Shown in pieces: positions 13,146 through 26,092 of a stretch of 32,000 bases of DNA. A model generated the notes under the pieces. It was not told where the DNA came from and did not search any database. It worked only from the letters and a program-made list of their open reading frames with translations. The stretch spans positions 750,001 through 782,000 of the forward strand of contig CP091279.1 of the NCBI GenBank assembly GCA_021650915.1. Direction: 5' to 3'. The stretch is from Candidatus Brocadia sp. (lineage in GTDB: Bacteria; Planctomycetota; Brocadiia; Brocadiales; Brocadiaceae). Both the position numbers and the translations under genes were made by a program. Each line of letters opens with the position of its first letter. Position 1 is the stretch's first letter.

Positions 13146-13171
13146 TCGTCACACCTGATTAATATCGATTC

Positions 13172-14869
13172 CTACCGTAAATACGCCTCCGTTACATAAC
13201 GGCGCATCATGCGATTGGTATTGAAGTAGTACGCGAGTTTGCTAATTGAATTTTTCATCATCCTGATCCATTGGCTTCTGTCGTGATAATACATGGGAAG
13301 AATAATGGTTTCCAGCTTGTAGTATAAGTCCTCAGCATCCGTTGCGTCGTTAACAGGTATCAGCGATGATTCTACCGGTTTAGGGCCAATAGACCAGCCG
13401 GTTACGCCCTCAAGATGACCCTCAATCCACCACCCATCCAGGATACTAAAATTGATCACCCCATTGTGCGCTGCCTTCATACCGCTCGTACCCGAGGCCT
13501 CGCGGGGGCGTAAAGGTGTATTAAGCCATATATCTACGCCAGAAATGAGCTTTAAGGCTATTTCCATATTGTAATTTTTAATAAACACAACACTGACATT
13601 GTCGTTTATGGTTTTCGCAATTTCAACGATTCTCCTGATAATATCTTTGCCCGGGGTGTCTTTCGGATGCGCCTTTCCCGAATAGATAATCTGAATCTTT
13701 CCTTTTTCACATATTTTTAGAAATCGTTCGAGATTAAAAAATATTAAATCTGCCCGTTTATACGACGTAAATCTTCTGGCAAATCCTATGGTAAACACAT
13801 CAGGGCTCATCTTTATATCCGTAATTTTTTTTACATAATCGACAAGATCATTTTTTGCATGGAGATGCGCTTCCCACACCTCTTCGTCGGGAATAATCTC
13901 TGAGCGGACAAGGAGTTCCGGTTCATTAGCCCAACTGGGTATATATTTGTCATACAAACGTTTAAAACTCTCACACGTCCAGGTAAACGAGTGCACTCCA
14001 TTGGTAATGGCATGAATCTCATAGCCAGGAAAGAGATTTTTCGATACCTCACCGTGTTTTTTTGCTACGCCGTTTATATAGTTACTCAGGTTTAAAGCAA
14101 GGTGTGACATATTTAAGTCATGTTCTCCACCGAGTCTTTTCAATACTTTCAATGGTATAATCTCACCAAGTATTTTCTGTACGAGATCATAGGAAAAACG
14201 ATCATGACCAGCTTCAATGGGAGTATGGGTTGTGAATACACAGAGGTCTTTTACCTTGTCAGTGTCCCAGATCCAATTTTCGTCCCAAACGCTTTCGACG
14301 TCACGTTTGTGGAGCAGAAGCAATTCCAGAGTCAATAGACTTGCATGTCCCTCGTTCATATGGTACTTTTTAATGTGAAATCCAAGAGCCCGAAGCATGC
14401 GCACCCCGCCAATACCAAGCACGATCTCCTGTTTTAACCGGTACTGCAAATCACCGCCATATAAAACGGCAGTAATTTCCCGGTCTTCTTTTGTATTCTC
14501 TGCAACATCAGTATCAAGATAGAAGACATCTATTTCTCCGCCAGCAATGCTTCGCACTTTATAGCACCATGCCTGGATATAAACAGCGCGCCCTTCAATT
14601 TGCACTTTGACCTTTCGCGGCAGGCGAGTCATAAATCTGGCGGGATCCCAGTCTACTGAATGTTCAACTTGTCTTCCCCCGCTGTCAATATCCTGAGAAA
14701 AGTAGCCCTTCTTTGAAATCAGGGTAACGGCAACAATCGGTATCTCCAGATCGGCGCTCGATTTTATGGTGTCTCCCGCCAGCACTCCGAGACCGCCGCT
14801 ATACGTAGGAATATCATTCGACAAACCGATTTCCATGGAAAAATATGCGATCATTGTTTCGTTATTCAT
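13172..14869 (-). CDS. glgP: Alpha-glucan phosphorylase (short GT35 form)
   Basis: 'YFSMEIGL...IPTYSGGLGVLAGD' N-terminus and the pyridoxal-phosphate lysine region 'EASGTSGMKAAHNGV'. 565 aa. Confidence 0.88.
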   Translation of the reverse strand: MNNETMIAYFSMEIGLSNDIPTYSGGLGVLAGDTIKSSADLEIPIVAVTLISKKGYFSQDIDSGGRQVEHSVDWDPARFMTRLPRKVKVQIEGRAVYIQAWCYKVRSIAGGEIDVFYLDTDVAENTKEDREITAVLYGGDLQYRLKQEIVLGIGGVRMLRALGFHIKKYHMNEGHASLLTLELLLLHKRDVESVWDENWIWDTDKVKDLCVFTTHTPIEAGHDRFSYDLVQKILGEIIPLKVLKRLGGEHDLNMSHLALNLSNYINGVAKKHGEVSKNLFPGYEIHAITNGVHSFTWTCESFKRLYDKYIPSWANEPELLVRSEIIPDEEVWEAHLHAKNDLVDYVKKITDIKMSPDVFTIGFARRFTSYKRADLIFFNLERFLKICEKGKIQIIYSGKAHPKDTPGKDIIRRIVEIAKTINDNVSVVFIKNYNMEIALKLISGVDIWLNTPLRPREASGTSGMKAAHNGVINFSILDGWWIEGHLEGVTGWSIGPKPVESSLIPVNDATDAEDLYYKLETIILPMYYHDRSQWIRMMKNSISKLAYYFNTNRMMRRYVTEAYLR

Positions 14870-14936
14870 GGGTATCCAGGCAGATGCGTCTGCTTATCCT
14901 TTCGTTGAACCTAAAGTTTTCAGAATAATCGTATTA

Positions 14937-16370
14937 TTACATATGGATGGGTCTATCAATGACTGCGTGAGCAGCCTCCAGAATGGCCTCAGAGAGGGTA
15001 GGGTGGGGGAATATGGCGTTCGTCAGCTCGATTGCCGTTCCTTCCAAAATTGCCGAAAGAGACATACCCCACATCAATTCGCCCACATTGGGCCCTATGG
15101 CATGCATTCCTAATATCTCACCATATTTATCGTCCGCAATAATTTTTAAAAATCCTTCTTCAGATTCACCATCAATAATTGCCTTGCTGTTAGCAAGAAA
15201 GGGAAATTTTCCTATCCTGGTTTTATATCCTCTTTTAACCGCTTCTTCCTGGGTAAGACCCATACTTGCAACCTGTGGTGAACAATACGTCACGGCAGGT
15301 ATATTTTGATAATTTATTGGTGCGGTCTCTTTGCCTGCAAGGTGAGAGACGGCAAGAAGTCCTTGTTTTACTGCCTTGTGGGCAAGAAGAGGAGGGCCGG
15401 TAATATCTCCAATAGCAAAGACGCCTTTTTGGCTTGTTTCCATAACCTTATTCGTTTGCAGATATTTTCCCTGGTAAGTTAATGATAATTTTTCCAGTCC
15501 AATGTCCGCCAGGGCAGGATTTCTTCCTAATGCAAGGAGTAGATAATCGGCTTTGATGAATTCCTGATTTCCCCTGGTGGCAGGGGGGGGGATGATCTCA
15601 TCTTTTCTTTTTATCTCTGCTGTCACACCATTGCCGACGGTGACCTTTTCCAACGAGGCACTGGTTTGAGTTTCTATTCCTCTGTTGTTAAAAATTCTTT
15701 TTAACGTCGAACTTATCTCTTTATCTCCTGCGGGAAGGATGTCGGTAAAAAATTCAAGGATGGTTACCTTCGCTCCCAAAATATTGAGGAGATGGGCAAA
15801 TTCAACCCCAATGGCGCCACCACCCGCAATAACGATGGATTTAGGGATTTCCTCCCATACTAAGATATCATTGCTGGTAAGAACGTATTTACTGTCGTGC
15901 GGAATGTTACCGGGGATGAGTGGAACAGACCCTGTTGCCAGGATAATATTTTTTGTAATAATCCTGTTAACATCTGTTCCGTTTTTTTTGACTAAAACAG
16001 AATTTGGCGATATGATGTAACCTTCGCCGTGAAAAACCTCAACTCGATTTTTTTTGAGAAGAAACTGGACTCCGTGAAACAGTCTTGCAACGACGTCCTC
16101 TTTTCTCCGGTGCAACTGTGCATAATTAATTTCTGCTTTATCGACCGTAATGCCAAATTCTTTTGCTCTCAGAAAGCGCACATAAAGATCCGCTGCGTGG
16201 AGAAGCACCTTTGTCGGAATACAACCCCGATGCAAACAGACGCCACCCACCTTATCCTTTTCGATAAGAGCAGTTTTTATTCCAAGTTGAGCGGCTCTTA
16301 TAGCCGCTCCATAACCGCCTGGTCCACCACCAATGATTGCAAGATCAAAGGCAGAGTCTCCCCCGGTCAA
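14937..16370 (-). CDS. lpdA: Dihydrolipoyl dehydrogenase (E3) / pyridine nucleotide-disulfide oxidoreductase
   Basis: FAD site 'DLAIIGGGPGGYGAAIRAAQLG'. Redox disulfide 'GGVCLHRGCIPTK'. NAD site 'IAGGGAIGVEFA'. C-terminal 'HPTLSEA'. TTG start 16370 is preceded by AAGGAGGG. Confidence 0.9.
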   Translation of the reverse strand: MTGGDSAFDLAIIGGGPGGYGAAIRAAQLGIKTALIEKDKVGGVCLHRGCIPTKVLLHAADLYVRFLRAKEFGITVDKAEINYAQLHRRKEDVVARLFHGVQFLLKKNRVEVFHGEGYIISPNSVLVKKNGTDVNRIITKNIILATGSVPLIPGNIPHDSKYVLTSNDILVWEEIPKSIVIAGGGAIGVEFAHLLNILGAKVTILEFFTDILPAGDKEISSTLKRIFNNRGIETQTSASLEKVTVGNGVTAEIKRKDEIIPPPATRGNQEFIKADYLLLALGRNPALADIGLEKLSLTYQGKYLQTNKVMETSQKGVFAIGDITGPPLLAHKAVKQGLLAVSHLAGKETAPINYQNIPAVTYCSPQVASMGLTQEEAVKRGYKTRIGKFPFLANSKAIIDGESEEGFLKIIADDKYGEILGMHAIGPNVGELMWGMSLSAILEGTAIELTNAIFPHPTLSEAILEAAHAVIDRPIHM

Positions 16371-16499
16371 TTATCCCTCCTTTTTCCATGTGAAAAGAAT
16401 AACGAAAATGAGTGCAATAGCGACAATCATAATCGCCTTTGGGCTAATATCAGGAATGATTGATTTTTCCATAGACAATGACAACAATTTACCGATCAT
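16371..16499 (-). CDS. Possible 42-aa single-pass membrane peptide, translationally coupled to lpd
   Basis: Hand translation: MIGKLLSLSMEKSIIPDISPKAIMIVAIALIFVILFTWKKEG*. GGAGGT lies 9 nt before ATG 16499. The TAA stop (16373-16371) abuts the lpd TTG start. Confidence 0.4.
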   Translation of the reverse strand: MIGKLLSLSMEKSIIPDISPKAIMIVAIALIFVILFTWKKEG

Positions 16500-16585
16500 G
16501 ATAATTTTACCTCCTTATTTAAAGCGGAAAGATTTTTAGCGTACATCAATTGGATTTCCACCGAACATCAAAACTATAATACAAA

Positions 16586-16615
16586 GGCACATCAGCGATA
16601 ACACATTGATGTGCC
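16586..16615 (-). terminator. Intrinsic terminator of the lipid operon
   Basis: GGCACATCA-12 nt-TGATGTGCC is followed on the minus strand by TTTGTATTATAGTTTT. It lies 39 nt after the radical SAM stop codon. Confidence 0.55.
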
Positions 16616-16653
16616 TCTGCAATCGCCTTTCAAGAAGGCTGAATGTGCTGGTA

Positions 16654-18114
16654 TTATGTAGAAACCGTTTCCATTATGGGTTTCGAAACCGTTACCGCAC
16701 TTGATTTATAGCAATCCTTATAGTAGTCGCCAGAATCATATAACTCTTTCAAATTTAGCAACACCTGTTCAAACACTTGTTTCCAATCGGAACCCACCCT
16801 GAAAGCAAACATGGAATTCCGGGGATTTTTCGTTGTCTTAATAGAATTCCTGAAGCGCGTCCGTAAGTTATCACCTGCATAAACATGATCATATACATAT
16901 TGCATACCCTCGATAAAATCTTCTAACGTCATGTCAACGAGGCGGTGAACAACATGAGCCGTGTCATAATATTGCCAGTCCTCAGGATAATTCTTTCTGA
17001 AAATCCTCTTTTCTGAATCCAGTCTTGAATAAAGCTGTGTTTTTGGGAATGGGCAGTTGATTCCAAAGGTAAGGATATCAATATTATTTTCCAGGATAAA
17101 CTCGGTCATTCTCTTAAAGGAATCTTTATCGTCTCCGTCCGCACCAAACACTACGGAACCCCATACGACTAAGCCTGCGTTATGTATTTTTTGGATGCAA
17201 TCAAAATAACTATCTGTGCCTAATTTAAGATTTACCCGCTTATTCATCTTCTCCAAAACCGCCTCATTGGTAGATTCAATACCGATAAGCATGCCAAAGT
17301 TACCGCTCTTGGCCATATAGTCTAAAGTCTCAGCATCCTGGGAAATATTTAAGGCCGTGAATCCCAACCAGTCTTTGTGTATGCCACGGTCTACCATTCC
17401 TTTAAAAAGATCCCGCGCCCTCTCATTTGACTTTTTACCGTGCCCATAGAAGTTATCCTCTGCAAGCATTAAACCCTTATAATCTGTTGCGGCCATCTCA
17501 TCGAGAACATCTTCATAAGGTCTTTCCCTGAACTTTCTGCCCTGGAAAGTGGGCACACTACAGAAATCACAGTAGTTCGGACATCCTTTTGTTGTCACGA
17601 TAGAGGAAAACTTATAGTTATATTTTTTCTTCATAAGCTCCCGGTTTGGATATACCTTTTTCATCAGGCTGAGAGGCGGTAATCCTCCCTCATAAATCTT
17701 TTTCAGCTTTCCTGCTTCAAAATCTTTTATTACCTGAGGCCACACTTCTTCTGCTTCGCCGACAAAGACGGAGTCAACATAATTTGCTGCTTCTTCTGGC
17801 ATTACCGACGCATGTATCCCACCCATGATTACCGTCATGCCTTTCTTCCTGCAAGCCTCAGCAATTTTATAAGCACGAGGAGATTGGTAGGTAACTGCGG
17901 TAATACATACAAGATCAACAGGCTTAAAGGTAAGTTCTCCGTTATCATCAATTGCCAATTCCAGATTCTCATCAATAACATCAAAATCCCAATCGCCTGG
18001 TGTAAGCGCAGCAACATAAGCAAGATTCAGCGGCATTTGAACGATTACGGTAATACTCTCTTCACCATGCCTACCCGGTTTGTGTGGGTTAATCAACATC
18101 ATTTTTCTCTTCAT
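16654..18114 (-). CDS. B12-binding (class B) radical SAM enzyme
   Basis: Radical SAM cluster motif CxxxCxxC in 'TKGCPNYCDFCSV'. The N-terminal cobalamin-binding-type domain runs about 140 aa ('VCITAVTYQSPRAYKIAEACRKKGMTVIMGGIHAS'). GGAGGT lies 6 nt before the ATG, inside the upstream gene end. Confidence 0.88.
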   Translation of the reverse strand: MKRKMMLINPHKPGRHGEESITVIVQMPLNLAYVAALTPGDWDFDVIDENLELAIDDNGELTFKPVDLVCITAVTYQSPRAYKIAEACRKKGMTVIMGGIHASVMPEEAANYVDSVFVGEAEEVWPQVIKDFEAGKLKKIYEGGLPPLSLMKKVYPNRELMKKKYNYKFSSIVTTKGCPNYCDFCSVPTFQGRKFRERPYEDVLDEMAATDYKGLMLAEDNFYGHGKKSNERARDLFKGMVDRGIHKDWLGFTALNISQDAETLDYMAKSGNFGMLIGIESTNEAVLEKMNKRVNLKLGTDSYFDCIQKIHNAGLVVWGSVVFGADGDDKDSFKRMTEFILENNIDILTFGINCPFPKTQLYSRLDSEKRIFRKNYPEDWQYYDTAHVVHRLVDMTLEDFIEGMQYVYDHVYAGDNLRTRFRNSIKTTKNPRNSMFAFRVGSDWKQVFEQVLLNLKELYDSGDYYKDCYKSSAVTVSKPIMETVST

Positions 18115-18118
18115 AAAT

Positions 18119-19579
18119 TTACCTCCACTTCTCCTTCTCCATAATTAAATTAGCTACACCCCATCCAGAAGACACAACCGCACAAATTCCAGGACCAGGC
18201 CTCGTCCAATGACCGGTTAAATACAGATTTTCAACCGGTGTCTGAGGGGACAGTCTGTTCTCTCCTATTTGATCCACAGTAACCTCCCAGCCATAAGCGG
18301 CTCCATCGGTATTTAATGTGTATCGCTCCAAAGTTTTTGGGGTAGCTGCTTCGATTACTTCAATATAATTTTTTATATCAGGAACATATTTCTCTATCCG
18401 GCCTATTGTGTCCGCAGTCATGTTTTCTTTAAAAGATTTCCAATTTATAACATGTCTGTACTTCTCCTTCTCAAGATACACTACCACAGAAATTATTTGT
18501 TTGTCTGGCGGGGCAAGTGTTGGGCATATCATTGTTGGAATTGAAACGTACAACCACACCGTATCTTTGTAACTTGCATCAGAAGCAGTATGATAAAATC
18601 CTCTTTTTAATTCACGTAAATCTGCGCCTTTACCAATACCTAAATATAAAAGAAAAAAGGAGCAACTTTCCCTCATCTCTTCAATATTTTTAAGAAACGC
18701 GGTGTCTAATTTTCCGTCCAACAATTCAAAAAAAGTCTTTCGGGCATCGATATTTGAAATAACGAGATTTGAGGATAGTTCTTTCCCTTCCTGCAACTTG
18801 ACACCAACCGCAGCGTTGTTGGTGCGTATGATTTTTTCGGCTTTGCATGATAGCATAACATGCCCGCCTAAATCAATAAATTTCTTAAAAAAGGCATTAG
18901 CAAACTCTTGCGTACCTCCTGCAGGAAAAAAAGCGCCATCTTTGAGATAGTTGATCATCATTTGACACATACCGATAGCAGAAGCTTTAGTAGGGGGGAG
19001 ACCTATGTAGCCCCATTGGCCGGAAAGTATCATCTTGAGCTCGTCATTATGGAGAAAAGCATTGAGCATCGCACCATACGTCTGGTCTCTGTATTTATCA
19101 AGAATTTGGCTTTTTTCGTTATTAAAGGTAGCGCGGTAGAGTTTTAGAAAATCCTGAAAGAAATGCTTGATACCATCCTTTTCCAATGGGTAACGATCTT
19201 GCAACCGCGCGATGTATTCGTCCAAATCGGCCGGGATTTCAATGGTAAAGTTGGGAAAAATCAAATGGTCCATGGGATCGAGAAGATGAAAATCCATCTC
19301 TATCCCCAAGGTTTTCAGACAACGCCCCACAATCCCCCATTTCCCACAGCCCCCAATATGATGAACTGCCGCATCAAAATTGAAACCTTTTCTTTTAAAG
19401 GAGGTACAATAACCGCCAGGAATGGAATGGTGTTCAATGATAAGCACCTTTTTCCCGGCCTTGGCAAGAACTGTGCCGCAAACCAAGCCAGCAACGCCTG
19501 CACCAATTACAATCGCATCATAATGAGGATACAATGCATCCTTTTTTGTAGATTGAATGCATCGGCTGGAAGGTGTCAT
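18119..19579 (-). CDS. FAD-dependent oxidoreductase of the phytoene desaturase (CrtI/CrtD, COG1233-like) family
   Basis: Dinucleotide fold 'YDAIVIGAGVAGLVCGTVLAKAGKKVLIIE' followed by 'GGYCTSF'. C-terminal 'LYLTGHWTRPGPGI' block. The start lies 3 nt after the upstream stop. Confidence 0.85.
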   Translation of the reverse strand: MTPSSRCIQSTKKDALYPHYDAIVIGAGVAGLVCGTVLAKAGKKVLIIEHHSIPGGYCTSFKRKGFNFDAAVHHIGGCGKWGIVGRCLKTLGIEMDFHLLDPMDHLIFPNFTIEIPADLDEYIARLQDRYPLEKDGIKHFFQDFLKLYRATFNNEKSQILDKYRDQTYGAMLNAFLHNDELKMILSGQWGYIGLPPTKASAIGMCQMMINYLKDGAFFPAGGTQEFANAFFKKFIDLGGHVMLSCKAEKIIRTNNAAVGVKLQEGKELSSNLVISNIDARKTFFELLDGKLDTAFLKNIEEMRESCSFFLLYLGIGKGADLRELKRGFYHTASDASYKDTVWLYVSIPTMICPTLAPPDKQIISVVVYLEKEKYRHVINWKSFKENMTADTIGRIEKYVPDIKNYIEVIEAATPKTLERYTLNTDGAAYGWEVTVDQIGENRLSPQTPVENLYLTGHWTRPGPGICAVVSSGWGVANLIMEKEKWR

Positions 19580-19582
19580 GAA

Positions 19583-20824
19583 TTACGGTTTGTATTTGGA
19601 GATAATTAAAGACGAATTGTTTCCCAATCGCGAGAAGGTGTTGATAAGGACATTTTTGACGGGTAATACCCTTGCGGTATTGGCTACATAATCTAAATCA
19701 CAGTCGGGGTCCCGTTCCTTATAGTTAATGGTGGGAGGCACGGTGTGAGCGTTGATAGACATTACAGCGGCTATTGTTTGCAATGCCCCGGATGCGTCAT
19801 AGCATTCTCCTGTCATAGATTTAATAGCACTTACAGGAATAAGCTGTGCGCGCATACCAAAAACTTCTTTCATAACCTGGGTTTCCATTGCGTCGCCGTA
19901 GATACCAGAATAAGCATTTGCTGATATGTAAGAAATGTCATTCAGCGTCAGGTTTGCATCCTGAATGGCGCTCATGATGGCTCTTTTGTTGCCGTCTATT
20001 TGATAGTCCTTACTAATAGCCATTTTCGGGTCAAACGCAGTCCCATATCCCTTTATTTCTGCATAAATAGGCGCATTCCGTTTCAAGGCATCCTCAAGAG
20101 TTTCCAGAATAACCAGGGCAGAAGCCTCGCCAATAACCATTCCATTGCGTCTTTTGTCAAAGGGCGCAGAGATTTCCTCATTTCCTTCCCTACTCCCCGA
20201 TAATATCCGTGAATTGTGAGCTCCCCAAAAGATGTCGTGCGTTAATCCATGCACGCCACCGGCAATTACGGCCTTTACCCGACCCATCCGAAGAAAATCT
20301 GAGGCATAAATAATTGCATCAACGCTGCTGGTTACCCCATTCGATATGGTGGTATTCAACCCCGTGGCCTTACAAAAGATAGAGGCGCGGCTGGCAGGTG
20401 CATTCAATACCGTATTCGGAAAATCCATAGGATTAACATAATTAGGACCTTCACGCAAGGATTGAAAATCGAAAGAGCTAATGCTATCAATACTTCCATA
20501 CGTCGAACCAACAACGATTCCCAGTTCATCGCCGTTGTATGTATTATTTTCTAAGTTAGCATCCTTTATGGCAAGGACGGTGGCAGAAGACACGAGCAGG
20601 GAGGTTCTGTCGATATGACGTATTCCCTTTTGCCCCAAGTATACCTTTGCGTCAAAATCAGAAATTTCGCCCGCCTGTTTGCTTTTAAATTTACTTACAT
20701 CAAATAAGGTGATGGGTTTAATGCCTGATACACCATTGGCTAAATTTTTCCAAAAAATCTCTTTTTGATTTCCAATCGGTGAGATAACAGAAACACCGGT
20801 AATAACGATCCTTGTTTTTTCCAT
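19583..20824 (-). CDS. Ketosynthase paralogue lacking the Cys-His-His triad (chain-length-factor-like)
   Basis: Full-length thiolase-fold alignment to the adjacent FabF. TACAAG is replaced by NGVTSS (Cys to Val), AHGTGT by ANAYSG (His to Asn), and GHTMGA by GECYDA (His to Glu). ATG 20824 has AGAGG 6 nt upstream; the track starts at GTG 20827. Confidence 0.85.
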   Translation of the reverse strand: MEKTRIVITGVSVISPIGNQKEIFWKNLANGVSGIKPITLFDVSKFKSKQAGEISDFDAKVYLGQKGIRHIDRTSLLVSSATVLAIKDANLENNTYNGDELGIVVGSTYGSIDSISSFDFQSLREGPNYVNPMDFPNTVLNAPASRASIFCKATGLNTTISNGVTSSVDAIIYASDFLRMGRVKAVIAGGVHGLTHDIFWGAHNSRILSGSREGNEEISAPFDKRRNGMVIGEASALVILETLEDALKRNAPIYAEIKGYGTAFDPKMAISKDYQIDGNKRAIMSAIQDANLTLNDISYISANAYSGIYGDAMETQVMKEVFGMRAQLIPVSAIKSMTGECYDASGALQTIAAVMSINAHTVPPTINYKERDPDCDLDYVANTARVLPVKNVLINTFSRLGNNSSLIISKYKP

Positions 20825-20875
20825 CACGAACCTCTGTTTATCGATACGTATACAGCTCCGAGAAACTGCCTGATT

Positions 20876-22108
20876 TCAAGTCTTGCCAGTAAATTTTTTA
20901 ACCACCAAACAACTATTGTTACCACCAAATGCATGGGCATTGTTCAGTGCAATGGTAACCTTCTGCTTTCTTGCAATATTAGGCACATAATCCAAATCAC
21001 ACTCCGGATCAGGTGTTTCATAATTGATCGTAGGAGGTATGATGTCGTTTTGAACAACCAGGGCGCAGGTAATAGCTTCTATAGCACTGGCCGCACCCAT
21101 CGTATGACCCATCATCGATTTTATCGAACTAATCGCGAGATGCTCAGGTTTATTCCCAAAGACCTTTTTAATAGAGATCGTTTCTGCTTTATCATTAGCA
21201 GGGGTTCCCGTACCGTGTGCACTCACATATTGGACATCTCCGGGCTGAAGATGTGCGCTTTTTAGGGCCTTTTTCATAGCGGAAACAACACCTTCCCCAT
21301 CTGGGTGAGGGATGGTAATGTGATATGCGTCACAGCTAAGGCCGTAACCAATAATTTCCGCATAAATATTGGCATTTCTCTGTATCGCATGATCAAGCGA
21401 TTCTAAAAGAAGCATGCCAGCGCCCTCGCCAACCATCATTCCCTTCCGATTTTTATCAAATGGCTGGCATATTTCAGGTGCAATGGCGCCTAATCTCGCA
21501 AATCCTGTGTAAGCAACTTTTGAAAAAGGATCGGAACCTCCGGCGACCATCAGATCCACCCGGCCAAATTTAATCAAATCATATGCATACCCAATTGCAT
21601 AATTGCCGGCAGCACAAGCAGTAGGAATAATCGTGTTTGGTCCCTTAAATCCAAACTCAATTGCAACATTTGCTGGAATATTATTACAGGGGTGCATCAA
21701 AAAGAGATCGGGGTCTACCTTGTCCTCTCCGTCTTTGTGTCTGATATAATTGACTTTTTCCAGAATCTGTATTTCTCCTGCCGTCGTCCCAACAGACACG
21801 CCAATTCTTTCCAAAGCAGTCTTACCTAAATCAAGCCCGGCGTCATCCAAAGCAAGTCGCGTAGCTGCGATCGCAAACTGAGAACCCTTACCAATTTTCT
21901 TGAGAACGCCATTCTTAATATAATCAGAATACTTGAAGTTTTTCACCTCACATCCCTTGTGAACCTTATATTCTGAAGTGTCAATACACGATACATCATC
22001 TACTCCAGAAGCACCCGCAATAAGGTTACTCCAAAATCCTTCCTTTCCCGATCCAATGGGAGTAATCATTCCTACACCAGTAATAACAACACGTTTATTC
22101 ATAAGCAA
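20876..22108 (-). CDS. fabF: 3-oxoacyl-ACP synthase II-type ketosynthase (intact active site)
   Basis: Active-site Cys '[14 protein letters not shown]'. His motifs '[15 protein letters not shown]' and '[13 protein letters not shown]'. The start is TTG 22108 or ATG 22102. Confidence 0.9.
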
Positions 22109-22119
22109 TTATACTATGA

Positions 22120-22575
22120 TCAATCAGATATTAATGCGTTCTTGTCTGCAATTCCAAAAGTCAAAGTTGCTTTAGCAACCGACTTATCTCCGACTTTTAC
22201 CATTGCCTGAACAATGGCCCCTTTGGATACAATCTTTTCTACCAAAATCTCTATAACGAGTTGATCGCCTGGAAAAACGGGTTTTGTAAATCTGGCATTG
22301 TTCACTGAAGCTAATAAAAAAACCGAATCCCCAGTGATTTGTGTGGAAAGACTTTTCCTGAAAAGGATAATGGAGGCTTGAGCCATCGCCTCTATAATCA
22401 ATACACCAGGCATGATCGCAAAGTCGGGGAAATGTCCAACAAAGACAGGTTCATTGCCGGAGACATTCTTTACACAAACAATCCTTTTCCCTTCTTCAAA
22501 CTCAACAGCTTTATCGATGAACAAAAATGGATATTTTTGAGGAAGAAGAGACCGTATTTCCTCAAAAAAAATCAT
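22120..22575 (-). CDS. fabZ: 3-hydroxyacyl-ACP dehydratase
   Basis: 'LPQKYPFLFIDKA' and 'GHFPDFAIMPGVLIIEAMAQ' (catalytic His and Glu). 151 aa. Confidence 0.9.
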   Translation of the reverse strand: MIFFEEIRSLLPQKYPFLFIDKAVEFEEGKRIVCVKNVSGNEPVFVGHFPDFAIMPGVLIIEAMAQASIILFRKSLSTQITGDSVFLLASVNNARFTKPVFPGDQLVIEILVEKIVSKGAIVQAMVKVGDKSVAKATLTFGIADKNALISD

Positions 22576-22647
22576 TTCCTATAACCCATCTTCTTATTAA
22601 TCAGTAAAATATACACGTTAATTACGTAGCTCTTTGTCTTGAATGAT

Positions 22648-22917
22648 TTACGAAGAAAGTTTTCCACTTTCCGCCAGAACAGATTTTGTTAAATCAATGG
22701 TTGCGCTTAAACACGTAATGTCAACCAGTTTTTCTTCAGGAATTTGCACCTTAAATTTTTTTTCAATAAGCGCCAGGATTTCAAGGGCTAAAAGGGAGTC
22801 TATTTCAAGATCTTTAAAGAAGTTTGCATCTCTTTTATCCCAAATTTCTTTTTCGTCCAATTCTGTGACCTCTGCAACTATCGCAGTTACACCTTTCTCA
22901 ATTTCTTCTGCGTTCAA
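22648..22917 (-). CDS. acpP: Acyl carrier protein (dedicated)
   Basis: Phosphopantetheine attachment motif 'LEIDSLLALEI'. 89 aa. TTG start 22917 has AAGGAGGAG 8 nt upstream. Confidence 0.88.
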   Translation of the reverse strand: MNAEEIEKGVTAIVAEVTELDEKEIWDKRDANFFKDLEIDSLLALEILALIEKKFKVQIPEEKLVDITCLSATIDLTKSVLAESGKLSS

Positions 22918-23000
22918 AATTATTCTCCTCCTTCTTCAGTTGATAAACGGCATTGACACAATAACCAGCATCTTTACTTATTACGTAAACGTAGCGGAGC

Positions 23001-23029
23001 ATATTAGCAGACGGAATTTATAATGTCAA
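23001..23029 (-). promoter_or_regulatory. Predicted sigma70-type promoter of the ACP-to-radical-SAM operon
   Basis: On the minus strand: TTGACA (23029-23024), 17 nt, TAATAT (23006-23001), about 84 nt upstream of the ACP start. Confidence 0.4.
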
Positions 23030-23160: not shown

Positions 23161-23772
23161 CTACCTTAGCCCTTTTAACGACTTCTTTTCATAACGTAAT
23201 TCCCTTCGTCTGTATTTATCCAACTCTTTCAATGCCTTATATACCTGCATCTCTAGCATCGTTTCATATTTAGATAATTCCATACTTCCGTTTTTATTTT
23301 CCATCATCTTCATGGCCTTCAACTGTGAAAGCTCCTTATTTGTCCTCTTTCGCGTCCTCAGAAATCCTTGCTCATATTCCTGGATACAAGAGGTATTGTA
23401 TTCTATTATCTGGCTTTCTATTTTCAAACATCGTTTTAACCGCCAAATACTTGAAATTATGCGATCGACAATAAGCAATTCTATTGCATTAGATGGTTTC
23501 AATTCATTCACAAGCTTATTTCTTAACTCATCAAGGTCGGAACTTTTTTCCCCCTCTAGCAATATTTCACGACTAAATATATATTGGCTTGCATCATTCT
23601 CTCCTGGTTTCATTGACTCTGAGGATATATTATTTTTCATAGCCTCCGTCTTTAAAGGGCTTAATGTTCCGCTTGATTCAACAATGGTACTCATTATCCT
23701 ATCTACTTTTTCTTTAGCAGAAATCTCTTTACTTTTTCCGTGTAAAACATCCTCTTTTAAAATCGTTGACAT
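23161..23772 (-). CDS. Hypothetical protein (203 aa from ATG 23772; ORF open to TTG 23853)
   Basis: Long AT-rich ORF with no motif I recognise. GAGGGAG lies 6 nt before ATG 23772, and there is no SD at 23853. The C-terminal half is predicted helical ('ELLIVDRIISSIWRLKRCLKIESQ'). Confidence 0.5.
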   Translation of the reverse strand: MSTILKEDVLHGKSKEISAKEKVDRIMSTIVESSGTLSPLKTEAMKNNISSESMKPGENDASQYIFSREILLEGEKSSDLDELRNKLVNELKPSNAIELLIVDRIISSIWRLKRCLKIESQIIEYNTSCIQEYEQGFLRTRKRTNKELSQLKAMKMMENKNGSMELSKYETMLEMQVYKALKELDKYRRRELRYEKKSLKGLR

Positions 23773-24088
23773 TATCTTCTCCCTCTTAATAATATCAGTA
23801 TAATATCTTGCTAAAACATCACATACTATCTCATAATCAATGAAACTATTCAATAAAATATTTTAACATTTATGGATTTCGTCTCTTATCGTCATAAAAG
23901 ATGCTATACTGGGTGGGATCGGCAAATCAATCTATAATTACTACGAAAAAGAGTGACAAAAAATGGTGTGCCGCGTGGAATAAATGTGACACCACGGTGG
24001 TTTATGTTTACAAGCTTTAAAACGAATTGATACAAAAGATTCGATTTGTGAAGGGTTTGGTGCAGACGGGTCTCTGTTTGGCAAAACT

Positions 24089-24757
24089 TTATAACGCCGT
24101 TTTAGGATTGCCAAAAATATACTCTGTCTGTTCAGGTGGAATTGCACTACCAAGATCTGCAAGAAATTCATTGGCCAATTGTAAAGCACTCGCGATGCTA
24201 TCTTCTCTTGTAGGAATAGAAAGTCTGACCATTAAACCATTCCTCTTTTTGTTAATCAATGAGAACCATAACTGTTTTATTTTTTGTCCTGTCCAATCAA
24301 CAATATTTTTGTCAATACACATCCAATAAATCATCAAAAAACCCTCCGCATCCTTTTCAACGTACAGGCAGTATGCTCGAAGATCGCGATTTAAAACATG
24401 GAATTCGCTGTCATTTAATTCTGTCACTTTAAAGCCAGAGCTACTAGAACACACCTTTGGGTTGTGAAAATTGCCAGCATCCAGTATTAGCAAAAAAAGA
24501 CTATCGCCATCCTTGTTTATATACTCTCTATCCAATGTCTGGCTAATAAAAGCGTACTTTTCATCGTCGCTATTCCAATCTTGCTCAGCTTCAGTATCCG
24601 TTCCTAGCCATCCAGTAAATTCCAGTGGTATTTTGAGCTGAGAGATAATATTCTGACTTTCATATTTAGCCTTTGGAAAGGTAAAGCAATAAATGCTGGT
24701 AAATAGCAATATTGCAATCGTAATCCACCCCTTCTTGTTAATACTCATCGTGCACAT
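24089..24757 (-). CDS. epsI: Exosortase-associated EpsI-family protein
   Basis: N-terminal membrane anchor, then 'IPLEFTGWLGTD', 'LDREYINKDGDSLFLLI' and 'FHNPKVCSSSSGFKV' (the family H-x-P-x-x-C-x-x-x-x-G block). An alternative ATG at 24748 forms an ATGA overlap with the exosortase stop. Confidence 0.75.
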   Translation of the reverse strand: MCTMSINKKGWITIAILLFTSIYCFTFPKAKYESQNIISQLKIPLEFTGWLGTDTEAEQDWNSDDEKYAFISQTLDREYINKDGDSLFLLILDAGNFHNPKVCSSSSGFKVTELNDSEFHVLNRDLRAYCLYVEKDAEGFLMIYWMCIDKNIVDWTGQKIKQLWFSLINKKRNGLMVRLSIPTREDSIASALQLANEFLADLGSAIPPEQTEYIFGNPKTAL

Positions 24758-25560
24758 CTTTCTAGCATGAACTCTAATCCAATTAATCCCGACACAATAA
24801 AAACAAATATTACAATTCCGCTAAAACTATGAAAAAAACCCTGGCCGGTTTCTTCACCAAAATAATAGGTAATAAGGCATAATGCTATAATACGAATAAG
24901 ATTGCCTAGGACTGCAAAAGGAACTATGGAAGAAACGAGAATAGTTTTTCTGAATAAACTGCTCCTGCTTAGGTATACATAAACCAGAGACAAAGAAAAC
25001 ATCGTAATTATAGAACGAAAACCGCTACAGGGTTGTCCCATAAATAATTCGCTCTCTCCGATCGTTAATAAAAGTCCTTCTCTTGATATAGGAAAATGAA
25101 AAAATCCGAGAATTATTTCGGTCATCACGGAAAGGCCGTATCGCATTGGAAGTGTGAGATCATCCACAATTCCGATGGGAATGGGCACCAAAAGCAACAG
25201 ATATAAAAGAGGAAATAATACAATCCTTGTTGCCTGAAATCCGTAAAGATAGGTTGTCAGCCCTAATAAAACAGGGAGTAAAGAAAGTGTCGTTATAAAT
25301 GAATACTGCTGACGCCAGCCAAAAATAAACAATAGAATTCCAACAAGAAAGCCAAAAAATCCCATGAGATTGTGGTCAAGTCTAGATTTTTGAATTGCCT
25401 CCTTTAAGGTTGTTCGTTTCCTCCAGATAAGCCAAAAGAACACAGGCAAGATAAAATAGGCATGCGTATAATCGAAAGCCTTCCATTCAGAACGATAAAG
25501 GTTAAAAAAAAGCGGTGTATATAAGATAACTATCATCGCCCAAATTATATAATTAATCAT
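24745..25560 (-). CDS. Exosortase (polytopic membrane transpeptidase-like protein)
   Basis: 'WKAFDYTHAYFILPVFFWLIW' N-terminal signature. Catalytic Cys 'MGQPCSGFRSIITMFSL'. 'LPMRYG' Arg. 'FHSFSGIVIF' His. About 8 predicted TM helices. Confidence 0.85.
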   Translation of the reverse strand: MINYIIWAMIVILYTPLFFNLYRSEWKAFDYTHAYFILPVFFWLIWRKRTTLKEAIQKSRLDHNLMGFFGFLVGILLFIFGWRQQYSFITTLSLLPVLLGLTTYLYGFQATRIVLFPLLYLLLLVPIPIGIVDDLTLPMRYGLSVMTEIILGFFHFPISREGLLLTIGESELFMGQPCSGFRSIITMFSLSLVYVYLSRSSLFRKTILVSSIVPFAVLGNLIRIIALCLITYYFGEETGQGFFHSFSGIVIFVFIVSGLIGLEFMLERCAR

Positions 25561-25778
25561 GCTATGGCTCGGGATTTAAGTATAGTAAACGAAATAATTG
25601 TTCGATTATCGGCGAGGTAATTGAGATTTTCCATGCAGAAATCTGAAATGATAAAATTTTGATACCACTAAAATAGTTTGCAGAGAGGTGAACCGGCCTG
25701 CATCTTCGCTGCGATCAAGGACGTTCGTTATTCGCAAACCGCAAGCATTCGTTCATGGTTTCTCCTTTGCATCCACTA

Positions 25779-25814
25779 TCGCTACCCTTCTCTATGTTAT
25801 AGGAAGGGTAGCGA
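25779..25814 (-). other. Conserved 3' stem-loop after PEP-CTERM gene 1
   Basis: TCGCTACCCTTC-12 nt-GAAGGGTAGCGA, 33 nt after the stop. It is homologous to 26503-26541, with compensatory changes between the copies. Confidence 0.5.
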
Positions 25815-25846
25815 GATTTTACCAAATATAATTAATACTAACTATT

Positions 25847-26092
25847 TTATGAAACCCCTTCTTTGTCTTCATGGTGCTGACAAACTGCTTCCTTTGATTT
25901 CCACTTCCTCCGTAAATATCGTAAACCAACGAATGCACCACCTCCAGCCGCAAAAAGAACACTACTTATAGGTTCTGGTACAGGCTTAGGCGGTTTTTTC
26001 TTTCCTTTAGCGTCCGCAGAGTTGACAACTATCGTTGTGGTTAACACCAGGGCAAATAAACATCCTCCAAATTTCATGAATCTTTTTTTCAT
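25847..26092 (-). CDS. Minimal PEP-CTERM protein 1 (81 aa)
   Basis: Signal peptide 'MKKRFMKFGGCLFALVLTTTIVVNSADA', then 10 Lys/Pro-rich residues. PEP-CTERM domain 'VPEPISSVLFAAGGGAFVGLRYLRRKWKSK', plus a 14-aa tail. GGAGGAGG SD. Next to the exosortase/EpsI genes. Confidence 0.7.
   Translation of the reverse strand: MKKRFMKFGGCLFALVLTTTIVVNSADAKGKKKPPKPVPEPISSVLFAAGGGAFVGLRYLRRKWKSKEAVCQHHEDKEGVS

What the first reader, a model, noticed from the sequence alone, without database searches (positions are those of the whole stretch)
16654..23029. ACP / FabZ / KS / dead-KS / CrtI-like flavoprotein / B12-radical-SAM operon: candidate pathway for an unusual (ladderane-type?) lipid
On the minus strand a near-consensus promoter (TTGACA-17-TAATAT) precedes six co-directional genes. 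Their gaps are 72, 11-17, 51, 3 and 4 nt, and a hairpin plus T-rich tail follows. The set comprises a dedicated ACP, a canonical FabZ, one intact KAS-II-type ketosynthase, a ketosynthase paralogue without a catalytic triad, a phytoene-desaturase-family FAD enzyme and a class-B radical SAM enzyme. It is not a housekeeping fab operon: there is no FabD, FabG, FabH, enoyl reductase, thioesterase or acyltransferase. The KS/KS*-ACP-dehydratase core would build an unsaturated acyl or polyene-ACP, and the flavoprotein and radical SAM enzyme are placed to remodel that chain. From memory, the same combination of gene types was proposed by comparative genomics of anammox Planctomycetes for ladderane (fused cyclobutane) lipid synthesis. 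That chemistry has not been demonstrated experimentally. Whatever the host, the product cannot be named from sequence.
Basis: partly seen in the sequence, partly recalled or inferred. Interest (0 to 1): 0.85.

Follow-up and report, generated by a model that had tools for sequence, protein, structure and literature searches.

The report
Known anammox putative ladderane-lipid operon
This is the six-gene "Cluster I" fatty-acid-like operon of an anammox bacterium (Candidatus Brocadia), already published and partly crystallised as the leading but unproven candidate for making ladderane membrane lipids. The same operon layout also occurs in high-GC soil and sediment bacteria whose labels and GC content place them outside the anammox order, so it may not be ladderane-specific.

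Summary
Six co-directional minus-strand genes (ACP, FabZ, intact KS, triad-less KS, CrtI-like flavoprotein, B12-domain radical SAM) lie at 16654-22917. The stated gaps, a promoter-like site and a stable downstream hairpin are all present.

The window comes from Candidatus Brocadia sp. UTAMX2. The operon is the ortholog of Kuenenia kuste3603-3608, "Cluster I", proposed for ladderane synthesis in 2009. That cluster was expressed in E. coli in 2016 without any product. It has since been dissected structurally (amxACP, amxFabZ, and the amxFabF2/amxFabFmut heterodimer). The window's two KS proteins are 100% identical to PDB 9s5h chains B and C. The finding is therefore a correct rediscovery, not a new one.

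Two details need correcting. The FabZ is the short-chain Ile69 variant, not a canonical FabZ. The "dead KS" is a chain-length-factor-like partner of the intact KS.

One result goes beyond the literature I read. The same six genes, in the same order, plus a FabG-like reductase, occur in high-GC (0.54-0.72) loci, several from MAGs labelled Acidobacteria or Planctomycetota. These share the triad-less KS, and all but one that could be read share Ile69. This contradicts the published claim that the cluster is exclusive to ladderane producers. The function remains unproven.

The parts
23001..23029 (-). Promoter-like site TTGACA-17-TAATAT with a TG extended -10, 84 nt upstream of the ACP start
   Evidence: Only weak evidence: the scan found 31 such sites in the 8-kb region against 20.6 +/- 4.3 in shuffles.
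22648..22917 (-). Dedicated acyl carrier protein (amxACP type), 89 aa. TTG start 8 nt after AGGAGG. Ser41 lies in the DSL motif.
   Evidence: Pfam PP-binding, E 1e-13. Below every NCBIfam housekeeping-ACP cut-off. Closest solved chains are amxACP 7auf (E 2e-44), 9s5i_E and 7qv0_D.
22120..22575 (-). 3-hydroxyacyl-ACP dehydratase of the amxFabZ type, 151 aa, with H48, E62 and Ile69
   Evidence: NF000582 FabZ scores 149.2, above the cut-off of 113. Closest solved chains are amxFabZ 8ayd and 7qv0_A. Ile69 replaces the canonical Gly. The ortholog prefers C6-C8 substrates (PMC10139942).
20876..22108 (-). Active KAS-II-type ketosynthase (amxFabF2), 410 aa, with C165/H298/K330/H335
   Evidence: NF005589 scores 451.8, above the cut-off of 387. 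Triad intact. 100% identical over residues 3-408 to PDB 9s5h/9s5i chain B.
19583..20827 (-). Triad-less ketosynthase paralogue (amxFabFmut), 414 aa, with V/N/K/E at the Cys/His/Lys/His positions. It is the chain-length-factor-like partner of the active KS.
   Evidence: Triad lost. 100% identical to PDB 9s5h/9s5i chain C. Heterodimer formation and malonyl-ACP decarboxylation were shown for these proteins in bioRxiv 10.64898/2026.05.19.726425.
18119..19579 (-). CrtI-family FAD flavoprotein ('PDH', kuste3607 ortholog), 486 aa, with GxGxxG at residues 26-31
   Evidence: Pfam Amino_oxidase and NAD_binding_8. crtI_fam scores 168, below the cut-off of 238. The AlphaFold model (pLDDT 85.9) matches carotenoid desaturase 4rep at TM 0.81 and 20% identity. 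The ortholog did not replace CrtI in E. coli (PMC4790861).
16654..18114 (-). Radical SAM enzyme with an N-terminal B12-binding-type domain (kuste3608 ortholog), 486 aa, with C178-x3-C182-x2-C185
   Evidence: Pfam B12-binding scores 42.1 (cut-off 32.1) and Radical_SAM 51.1. No curated family is matched: TIGR04072 scores 90.6 against a cut-off of 360. The model (pLDDT 86.1) is closest to AprD4, MgmA, TsrM, TokK, CysS and OxsB.
16580..16621 (-). Terminator-like hairpin followed by a T-rich tail (to about 16565)
   Evidence: -30.8 kcal/mol over the 91-nt stretch, z = -3.4, and 1 of 200 shuffles folds as well.

Best explanation
The locus is the Brocadia copy of anammox 'Cluster I' (kuste3603-3608). 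It is a self-contained type II FAS/PKS-like module that works on its own carrier protein.

**Steps shown, for identical or orthologous proteins in the cited papers:**
- The intact KS and the triad-less KS form a KS/chain-length-factor-like heterodimer.
- That heterodimer decarboxylates malonyl-amxACP, which primes synthesis, and it prefers short (C6-C8) chains.
- The Ile69 FabZ dehydrates (3R)-3-hydroxyacyl-amxACP, again with a C6-C8 preference.

**Steps inferred:**
- A ketoreductase is supplied in trans. The related high-GC operons encode a FabG-like one directly after the radical SAM gene.
- No enoyl reductase belongs to the set, so the module delivers a short enoyl or polyenoyl chain on amxACP.
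- The CrtI-like flavoprotein (desaturation, isomerisation or saturation) and the B12-domain radical SAM enzyme (radical C-C bond formation or methylation) then remodel that chain.

**Function.** In the anammox host the most likely role is a contribution to ladderane fatty-acid or alcohol synthesis. I put this at about 0.55. The operon alone is probably not sufficient, and its chemistry is probably not unique to anammox bacteria.
For: **Identity of host and cluster.**
- The radical SAM protein is an exact match on GCA_002050315.1.
- The flavoprotein is 100% identical to a Ca. Brocadia sp. UTAMX2 protein.
- That organism belongs to Brocadiales.
- The gene set and order equal kuste3603-3608 as tabulated in PMC4790861.
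- The KS and the triad-less KS are 100% identical to PDB 9s5h chains B and C.
- ACP and FabZ are closest to the amxACP and amxFabZ structures.

**Catalytic residues.** KS triad intact and second-KS triad lost. FabZ H48/E62/I69. Radical SAM CxxxCxxC.

**Synteny.** The order is conserved in every low-GC locus long enough to show it.

**Biochemistry, from the papers.** The heterodimer, malonyl-ACP decarboxylation and short-chain preference are from bioRxiv 10.64898/2026.05.19.726425. The FabZ C6-C8 preference is from PMC10139942. High expression of the cluster is reported in PMC4790861.

**Reductase in related operons.** A FabG-like SDR follows the radical SAM gene in the non-anammox operons: TIGR01830 scores 288.8, just under its cut-off, and NF009466 scores 264.9, above its cut-off of 222.
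Against: - No experiment links any Cluster I protein to ladderanes (PMC10139942, the preprint, PMC13459092).
- Anaerobic expression of kuste3603-3608 in E. coli changed no fatty acid (PMC4790861). This negative is weak, because the paper's main text never mentions cobalamin or B12.
- Polyunsaturated intermediates have not been detected in anammox cells, and labelling patterns do not fit the polyene-cyclisation schemes (PMC10139942).
- The same six-gene operon occurs in high-GC MAGs that are not Brocadiales by label and composition. This undercuts the argument that the cluster is exclusive to ladderane producers.
- Whether the radical SAM enzyme binds cobalamin is unknown. From my own knowledge, its best fold match, AprD4, carries a B12-like domain without cobalamin (for the match itself).
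Confidence: 0.6

Rival explanations
1. Cluster I makes a different specialised acyl product, and ladderane rings are built by other genes. Candidates for that product are a short polyenoyl, isomerised or otherwise radical-SAM-tailored chain. The product would be shared by anammox bacteria and by unrelated high-GC Planctomycetota and Acidobacteriota.
For: - Orthologous operons (identity to the window proteins: ACP 49-55%, FabZ 49-50%, KS 53-58%, triad-less KS 32-38%, flavoprotein 39-43%, radical SAM 58%) occur in the same order, plus FabG, in loci of GC 0.54-0.72.
- The core without the radical SAM gene (SDR, triad-less KS, FabZ, KS, ACP, flavoprotein) occurs in further lineages, including a Desulfobacterales MAG.
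- Expression of the cluster in E. coli gave no ladderanes (PMC4790861).
- Rattray 2009 had already noted related clusters in Desulfotalea, which makes no ladderanes.
Against: - The cluster is present in every anammox lineage sampled and is highly expressed there.
- No alternative product is known from anammox cells.
- The lipids of the high-GC organisms are unknown, so they could themselves make cyclised lipids.
Confidence: 0.28
2. The B12-domain radical SAM enzyme is a C-methyltransferase, and the operon makes methyl-branched fatty acids. Such acids, for example 10-methylhexadecanoic acid, are known from anammox bacteria (my own knowledge, from Sinninghe Damste 2005).
For: - Most characterised cobalamin-dependent radical SAM enzymes are methylases (PMC13598231).
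- The nearest NCBIfam and fold neighbours include the methylases HpnR, PhpK, MgmA, TsrM, TokK and CysS.
Against: - This reading does not explain the dedicated ACP, the KS/CLF pair or the short-chain FabZ.
- The neighbours equally include non-methylating members: BchE, HpnJ, AprD4 and OxsB.
- All matches are far below family cut-offs.
Confidence: 0.08
3. It is an aryl-polyene or other pigment-type highly reducing type II PKS cluster.
For: - The core is a KS/CLF pair, a FabZ-like dehydratase and an ACP.
- Precomputed Pfam hits to ApeI-like and ApeP-like families fall on the FabZ.
- The ishigamide KS, 6kxd, is among the best solved-structure hits of the KS at E 8.5e-100.
Against: - The ApeI/ApeP hits are weak and overlap the stronger FabA hit.
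- The window has none of the other genes usual in aryl-polyene clusters (my own knowledge): starter-unit adenylation or thioesterase genes, a second KS, lipid-transfer or export genes.
- The KS/CLF pair and the FabZ prefer C6-C8 chains (preprint; PMC10139942).
- Aryl-polyene clusters have no radical SAM or CrtI-like genes (my own knowledge).
Confidence: 0.02
4. It is a housekeeping FAS II operon.
For: The FabZ and the KS pass NCBIfam FabZ and KAS-II subfamily cut-offs.
Against: - FabD, FabG, FabH and FabI are absent.
- The ACP falls below all housekeeping-ACP cut-offs.
- Anammox genomes carry a separate canonical set, kustd1386-1391 (PMC4790861).
Confidence: 0.02

Closest known systems
Anammox 'Cluster I': K. 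stuttgartiensis kuste3603-3608 and the Brocadia fulgida and Scalindua brodae orthologs (amxACP, amxFabZ, amxFabF2, amxFabFmut, PDH, B12 radical SAM)
   Same: The gene content and order are the same and the host order is the same. The KS pair is 100% identical to the crystallised proteins (PDB 9s5h). The Val/Asn/Glu substitutions in the triad-less KS match those of Kuste3606. Ile69 is present in the FabZ.
   Different: Nothing material. This is another strain's copy. The flanking genes (small ORF, lpd, glgP, HAD and a second FabZ-like gene) are shared only within Brocadiaceae.
Highly reducing type II PKS systems with KS/CLF heterodimers (ishigamide Iga11/12, aryl polyene ApeO/ApeC, cinnamoyl-lipid systems, cispentacin AmcF/AmcG)
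   Same: An active KS is paired with a triad-less partner, together with a discrete ACP and a FabZ-like dehydratase and with no enoyl reductase. In some of these systems a carbocycle forms on ACP-bound intermediates (PMC8358021, PMC10698177, PMC12532209).
   Different: The window scores below the AmcE and AmcF cut-offs (100 against 140; 245 against 325). Those systems have no CrtI-like or radical SAM partner. The anammox operon encodes no KR. Its chain preference is C6-C8.
Canonical bacterial FAS II (FabF, FabZ, AcpP)
   Same: The folds and catalytic residues of the KS and FabZ are the same, and a phosphopantetheinyl ACP is used.
   Different: The KS is a heterodimer rather than a homodimer. 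The FabZ tunnel is narrowed by Ile69. The ACP is dedicated. FabD, FabG, FabH and FabI are absent.
CrtI / CrtD / carotenoid isomerase family flavoenzymes
   Same: The fold matches (TM 0.81 to 4rep) and the FAD-binding GxGxxG motif is present.
   Different: Identity is only about 20%. All NCBIfam family cut-offs are missed. The ortholog kuste3607 does not convert phytoene (PMC4790861). The presumed substrate is ACP-bound acyl rather than isoprenoid.
Cobalamin-dependent (class B) radical SAM enzymes, both methylating (TsrM, TokK, CysS, MgmA, HpnR) and non-methylating (BchE, OxsB, HpnJ), plus AprD4
   Same: An N-terminal Rossmann B12-type domain is joined to a CxxxCxxC radical SAM barrel.
   Different: Identity to any characterised member is only 11-18%. 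No curated family fits, including TIGR04072 'rSAM_ladder_B12' (90.6 against 360). The reaction and cofactor use are unknown.

Membership tests
Anammox Cluster I (kuste3603-3608-type putative ladderane operon) | Six genes in the order ACP, FabZ, KS, triad-less KS, CrtI-like flavoprotein, B12-domain radical SAM, all on one strand | tested here: met
   The order matches Table 2 of PMC4790861.
Anammox Cluster I (kuste3603-3608-type putative ladderane operon) | The host is an anammox bacterium (Brocadiales) | tested here: met
   Exact protein matches on a Ca. Brocadia sp. UTAMX2 contig. Lineage confirmed.
Anammox Cluster I (kuste3603-3608-type putative ladderane operon) | The second KS lacks the Cys-His-His triad (Val/Asn/Glu in Brocadia and Kuenenia) | tested here: met
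   V/N/K/E at the aligned positions. 100% identical to PDB 9s5h chain C.
Anammox Cluster I (kuste3603-3608-type putative ladderane operon) | The FabZ carries Ile69 in place of the canonical Gly | tested here: met
   The feature is defined in PMC10139942.
Anammox Cluster I (kuste3603-3608-type putative ladderane operon) | The cluster occurs exclusively in ladderane producers (as claimed in PMC10139942 and the 2026 preprint) | tested here: not met
   The same order plus FabG occurs in GC 0.54-0.72 loci L087, L092, L093, L127-L129 and a JGI contig, several of them labelled Acidobacteria or Planctomycetota. This concerns the family's claimed distribution, not the membership of this window.
Anammox Cluster I (kuste3603-3608-type putative ladderane operon) | The product is a ladderane lipid | not testable with these tools
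   No experiment shows this anywhere (PMC13459092, PMC10139942).
Housekeeping FAS II operon | FabD, FabG and FabH (and usually an enoyl reductase) accompany ACP and FabF | tested here: not met
   None was found among the ORFs of the 32-kb window that were scanned.
Highly reducing type II PKS (KS/CLF + KR + DH + ACP) | A KS/CLF heterodimer with one inactive subunit | tested here: met
   Triads compared. Identical to the crystallised heterodimer (preprint).
Highly reducing type II PKS (KS/CLF + KR + DH + ACP) | A cluster-encoded ketoreductase | tested here: not met
   The window has no SDR next to the operon. The high-GC relatives do have one.
Highly reducing type II PKS (KS/CLF + KR + DH + ACP) | A polyene product on the ACP | not testable with these tools
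   None was detected in E. coli or in anammox cells according to PMC4790861 and PMC10139942.
CrtI phytoene desaturase family (TIGR02734) | Score at or above the curated cut-off, and phytoene desaturation activity | tested here: not met
   Score 168.1 against a cut-off of 238.1. The ortholog kuste3607 failed to replace CrtI (PMC4790861). Only the fold matches.
TIGR04072 rSAM_ladder_B12 (lipid biosynthesis B12-binding/radical SAM protein) | Score at or above the curated cut-off of 360 | tested here: not met
   Score 90.6. The paralog and the high-GC relatives score 59-85.
Class B (cobalamin-dependent) radical SAM | A CxxxCxxC motif plus an N-terminal B12-binding-type domain | tested here: met
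   C178/C182/C185 are invariant. PF02310 scores 42.1, above the cut-off of 32.1.
Class B (cobalamin-dependent) radical SAM | The enzyme actually binds and uses cobalamin | not testable with these tools
   The best fold match is AprD4. From my own knowledge, AprD4 has the domain but no cobalamin.

The most novel reading that the evidence does not exclude
The Cluster I layout is not an anammox invention. The layout is ACP, Ile69-FabZ, KS/CLF pair, CrtI-like flavoprotein and B12-domain radical SAM, and in the high-GC lineages a FabG follows it.

Orthologous operons sit in high-GC bacteria that are non-Brocadiales by label and composition (MAGs labelled Planctomycetota, Acidobacteria and Vicinamibacteria). 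Often a copy of the second module (radical SAM, KS, triad-less KS) is present too, sometimes fused into the same operon.

The most novel reading is that an undiscovered class of radical-SAM-tailored lipids exists in soil and sediment bacteria. These lipids might bear cyclobutane rings. Under this reading the ladderane pathway can be attacked through those operons, which carry their own reductase, instead of through the intractable anammox organisms.
Probability: 0.3. Interest if true: 0.75.

Novelty: already known. Interest (0 to 1): 0.35.

Why it matters
Ladderane biosynthesis is a long-standing open problem. No pathway, intermediate or enzyme activity for the cyclobutane rings is known, and anammox bacteria have no genetic system. 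This window adds nothing to what is published about Cluster I itself, since its KS pair is the very protein pair already in the PDB.

What may matter is the comparative result. A main argument for Cluster I is that it is "encountered exclusively in ladderane producers". That argument does not hold at the level of operon architecture and hallmark residues. Either the cluster's product is broader than ladderanes, or ladderane-like chemistry is broader than anammox. In both cases the seven-gene high-GC operons, which include their own FabG, are a more complete set for reconstitution.

Tried and rejected
- **Rfam scan** of the whole window at gathering thresholds: nothing, so no cobalamin or SAM riboswitch lies ahead of the operon. 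No tRNA genes.
- **Promoter and terminator scans.** Promoter-like sites are barely enriched (31 against 20.6 +/- 4.3). Terminator-like sites are not enriched (6 against 7.3 +/- 2.8). The two minus-strand terminator-like hits inside the FabZ and KS genes were therefore ignored. The real downstream hairpin was missed by that tool because its loop exceeds 8 nt, and was confirmed by folding instead.
It returned mostly distant (about 30-37% identical) B12 radical SAM genes with no lipid context. It therefore could not give a species-level census, and did not even recover the window's own genome.
- **TIGR04072 'rSAM_ladder_B12'** looked like a ready label but is not met by this protein, its paralog or the high-GC relatives.
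- **A recollection from memory** that a phytoene-dehydrogenase-like enzyme aromatises the ring in cinnamoyl-lipid type II PKS pathways could not be verified in the library. The paper I read lists an isomerase and a cyclase complex instead, so the point is not used.
- **NCBI taxonomy look-up** of the 'Acidobacteria bacterium 13_1_40CM_2_60_7' name failed. The non-anammox status of the high-GC loci therefore rests on source labels, GC content and neighbouring genes only.
- **Housekeeping fab operon and aryl-polyene cluster** were considered and rejected on gene content.

Full report
**1. Observation**

They are ACP 22648-22917, FabZ 22120-22575, KS 20876-22108, a second KS 19583-20827, a flavoprotein 18119-19579 and a radical SAM protein 16654-18114.

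The intergenic gaps computed from these coordinates are 72, 11 (17 from the next ATG), 48 (51 from the next ATG), 3 and 4 nt.

Pfam and NCBIfam confirm each assignment:
- ACP: PP-binding.
- FabZ: NF000582 scores 149, above the cut-off of 113.
- Intact KS: KAS-II subfamily NF005589 scores 452, above the cut-off of 387.
- Second KS: both ketoacyl-synt domains, but only 332 bits on the same model.
- Flavoprotein: Amino_oxidase and NAD_binding_8, with crtI_fam and carotenoid-isomerase models as best but sub-threshold hits.
- Radical SAM: B12-binding plus Radical_SAM.

Residue checks give the following:
- The first KS has C165/H298/K330/H335, and the second has V/N/K/E at those positions.
- The radical SAM protein has C178-x3-C182-x2-C185.
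- The ACP has Ser41 in a DSL motif.
- The FabZ has H48 and E62.

The promoter-like TTGACA-17-TAATAT, with a TG before the -10, is at 23029-23001. The scan found 31 such sites in 8 kb against 20.6 +/- 4.3 in shuffles, so it is only suggestive.

Downstream of the radical SAM stop codon, a hairpin at 16621-16580 with a T-rich tail folds at -30.8 kcal/mol over the 91-nt stretch (z = -3.4).

None of the window ORFs I scanned encodes FabD, FabG, FabH, an enoyl reductase, a thioesterase or an acyltransferase.

**2. What it is**

The radical SAM protein occurs, residue for residue, on contig MWTE01000147 of GCA_002050315.1 and on several other assemblies with the same neighbours. The flavoprotein is 100% identical to a protein of Candidatus Brocadia sp. 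UTAMX2, which belongs to Brocadiales. The host is therefore an anammox bacterium.

The gene set and order are those of Kuenenia stuttgartiensis kuste3603-3608: ACP, FabZ, FabF, non-canonical FabF, 'phytoene desaturase' and radical SAM enzyme (PMC4790861). This is one of the clusters Rattray et al. proposed in 2009 for ladderane synthesis (PMC2649909). It is now called Cluster I (bioRxiv 10.64898/2026.05.19.726425).

The window's two KS proteins are 100% identical to chains B and C of PDB 9s5h/9s5i. The ACP is closest to the amxACP structures 7auf, 9s5i_E and 7qv0_D. The FabZ is closest to the amxFabZ structures 8ayd and 7qv0_A.

No structure exists for relatives of the flavoprotein or the radical SAM enzyme. 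Their best sequence hits among solved chains are CrtI 4dgk (E 1e-21) and radical SAM core matches only.

**3. What is already shown for these proteins (from the papers)**

- The intact and triad-less KS proteins form a heterodimer analogous to KS/chain-length-factor pairs. It decarboxylates malonyl-ACP and favours C6-C8 probes (preprint).
- amxFabZ carries Ile69 where canonical FabZ has Gly. It dehydrates C6 much faster than C8 and hardly touches C10 or C12 (PMC10139942). The window's FabZ has Ile69.
- Kuste3607 does not replace CrtI in a lycopene pathway (PMC4790861).
- Anaerobic expression of kuste3603-3608 in E. coli changed no fatty acid, although all six proteins were detected. The words cobalamin and B12 do not occur in that paper's main text. 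E. coli makes no cobalamin (established knowledge), so the negative result weighs little against a B12-type enzyme.
- Reviews up to 2026 still describe the pathway as unknown (PMC13459092; PMC13598231).

**4. Structure-level neighbours**

The AlphaFold model of the radical SAM protein (pLDDT 86.1) is closest to AprD4, MgmA, TsrM, TokK, CysS and OxsB, at 11-18% identity. It therefore belongs to the B12-domain radical SAM fold class, but the fold gives no hint of methylating versus non-methylating chemistry.

The flavoprotein model (pLDDT 85.9) matches a carotenoid desaturase, 4rep, at TM 0.81 and 20% identity.

The curated model named for this setting, TIGR04072 rSAM_ladder_B12, is not met: 90.6 against a cut-off of 360.

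**5.

*Within anammox lineages.* The six-gene order is universal wherever the contig is long enough. It holds in all metagenome loci of GC 0.34-0.51 and in L007, L009 and L089. The substitutions in the triad-less KS vary by lineage: V/N/K/E, T/C/K/E, V/C/K/E and E/N/K/D.

*A paralogous module.* A second module (radical SAM, KS, triad-less KS; the kuste2803-2805 type) exists in L008, L010 and L089.

*Outside anammox lineages.* The synteny is not confined to Brocadiales.
- Homologs of the radical SAM protein at 53-60% identity led to L087/L088. These come from 'Acidobacteria bacterium 13_1_40CM_2_60_7' and GCA_036790625.1 (GC 0.60). They carry ACP, FabZ, KS, triad-less KS, flavoprotein and radical SAM in that order, followed by a FabG-like SDR, with FabH next door and glycoside hydrolases as neighbours.
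- A search with the L087 flavoprotein found about 36 protein clusters at 57-100% identity. Where named, they are labelled Acidobacteria, Vicinamibacteria or Planctomycetota. The anammox proteins form the next tier at 43-47%.
- Three further members of that clade were looked up, and all three showed the same order plus SDR. They were L092 (Planctomycetota GCA_004295085.1, GC 0.70), L093 (Planctomycetota GCA_008501825.1, GC 0.58, with the paralog module fused downstream) and a 120-kb JGI contig flanked by TonB-dependent receptors. With L087/L088, every member of the clade looked up has this order.
- The metagenome scan added further high-GC examples. L127, L128 and L129 show the six-gene order where the contig allows. 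L124, L125 and L130 are shorter fragments consistent with it. L126 shows the flavoprotein gene only.
- Rearranged forms also appear (L135 and L137). So does a version without the radical SAM gene (SDR, triad-less KS, FabZ, KS, ACP, flavoprotein) in loci of GC 0.44-0.49. A Desulfobacterales MAG carries a further radical-SAM-less arrangement, with the flavoprotein and SDR genes upstream of ACP, FabZ, KS and the triad-less KS.

*Similarity of the high-GC operons to the window.* Identity is 49-55% for ACP, 49-50% for FabZ, 53-58% for KS, 32-38% for the triad-less KS, 39-43% for the flavoprotein and 58% for the radical SAM protein.

*Hallmark residues.* Every cluster pairs a C-H-K-H KS with a triad-less partner. 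Nearly all have the H48/E62/I69 FabZ. The supposedly anammox-specific hallmarks are therefore shared.

*Radical SAM phylogeny.* A neighbour-joining tree groups the sequences into anammox Cluster I, the anammox paralog and the high-GC clade. Together these form one family, far from the roughly 35%-identical outgroups. The tree is approximate.

*Consequence.* The published statements that the cluster is 'encountered exclusively' in ladderane producers (PMC10139942) or is 'unique to ladderane-producing bacteria' (preprint) do not hold at this level.

*Caveats.* The non-anammox status rests on source labels, GC content and neighbouring genes. I could not inspect whole genomes for hydrazine synthase. 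All of these organisms are uncultured, so their lipids are unknown. antiSMASH-labelled 'ladderane' clusters in non-anammox phyla have been reported before, but only generically (PMC7298704, PMC9902471). In the library I searched I found no report of the exact six-gene synteny outside anammox.

**6. Mechanism**

*Shown* (for identical or orthologous proteins): a KS/CLF-like heterodimer primes by malonyl-amxACP decarboxylation and handles short chains, and the Ile69 FabZ dehydrates short 3-hydroxyacyl-amxACP.

*Inferred:*
- A FabG acts in trans. It is encoded in cis in the high-GC operons, where TIGR01830 scores 288.8 and NF009466 scores 264.9, above its cut-off of 222.
- With no enoyl reductase in the set, a short enoyl or polyenoyl chain on amxACP is the likely intermediate.
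- The CrtI-like flavoprotein is linked to the KS/CLF, DH and ACP core even in clusters that lack the radical SAM gene. It therefore probably acts directly on the ACP-bound chain, by desaturation, isomerisation or saturation.
- The radical SAM enzyme is an add-on that performs a radical step.

Ring formation during chain growth, 'type c' in PMC10139942, fits the short-chain preferences best. This is conjecture.

I put the probability that the operon contributes to ladderane synthesis in Brocadia at about 0.55. I put the probability that it makes some other product shared with non-anammox bacteria at about 0.3.

**7. Verdict**

Two corrections apply: the FabZ is not canonical, and the 'dead KS' is a CLF-like subunit.

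The useful by-product is the occurrence of the same operon outside anammox bacteria. This weakens the exclusivity argument and offers operons with their own reductase for reconstitution.

Noticed in passing
window 16374-16502 (-): A 42/43-aa single-TM micro-ORF (MMIGKLLSLSMEKSIIPDISPKAIMIVAIALIFVILFTWKKEG) with its own AAGGAGG sits between the radical SAM terminator hairpin and the lpd start. It is 85-95% identical across Brocadia-, Jettenia- and Kuenenia-like loci, where Lpd itself is only 62-74% identical. It matches no NCBIfam family.
   Followed up: partly
window 11909-12382 (+): A second, divergent FabZ-like gene of 157 aa has H/E/T at the H48/E62/I69 positions. It falls just below both NCBIfam FabZ cut-offs (109.4 against 113; 112.3 against 155). 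In several Brocadiaceae loci (L099, L101, L102, L104) it is conserved at 86-89% on the opposite strand, a few kb downstream of the operon.
   Followed up: partly
window 23161-23853 (-): A 230-aa protein with no Pfam or NCBIfam match lies immediately upstream of the operon's promoter region. It is conserved (51-65%) in that position in Brocadiaceae loci.
   Followed up: no
window 12399-16370 (-): Dihydrolipoyl dehydrogenase (TIGR01350 scores 508), an alpha-glucan phosphorylase-like protein and a HAD hydrolase follow the operon. The order is conserved within Brocadiaceae but not in the Scalindua-type loci.
   Followed up: partly
L089:3035-21464: On a 5.1-Mb, GC 0.34 contig, Cluster I lies divergently adjacent to the paralog module. 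That module runs radical SAM, KS, triad-less KS, OYE-like flavoprotein, enoyl-CoA hydratase, SDR and muconolactone-isomerase-like protein. A third radical SAM copy (77% identical to the window protein) lies about 9 kb further on.
   Followed up: partly
L093:6807-17307: In a Planctomycetota MAG (GC 0.58), the six-gene set and the paralog module (radical SAM, KS, a 332-aa KS-like protein) plus an SDR are fused into one ten-gene co-directional string. L124 shows the same junction.
   Followed up: partly
L152, L161, L166, L172, L173 (metagenome contigs, GC 0.44-0.49); L094 (Desulfobacterales MAG): A variant without the radical SAM gene (SDR, triad-less KS, FabZ with Ile69, KS, ACP, CrtI-like flavoprotein) recurs in the five metagenome contigs. 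In L094 the flavoprotein and SDR genes lie upstream of ACP, FabZ, KS and the triad-less KS, and OYE-like and flavodoxin-like genes are added. The flavoprotein therefore looks tied to the KS/CLF core independently of the radical SAM enzyme.
   Followed up: partly
window 1158-9538 (+): A type I restriction-modification system: HsdM, a YhcG-like PDDEXK nuclease, HsdS, a 188-aa unknown protein and a 1010-aa HsdR-like protein.
   Followed up: no
window 24089-26092 (-): An exosortase (XrtB/V-like, below the specific cut-offs) and EpsI lie here. Upstream are two 81-aa small proteins, possibly PEP-CTERM-type sorting substrates, and a Big_1/Laminin_G_3 surface protein (27614-29620).
   Followed up: no
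window 16654-18114 (-), structural model: The best fold match of the 'B12' radical SAM model is AprD4. From my own knowledge, AprD4 has a B12-like domain but no cobalamin. The class-B label for the anammox enzyme is therefore domain-based only.
   Followed up: no
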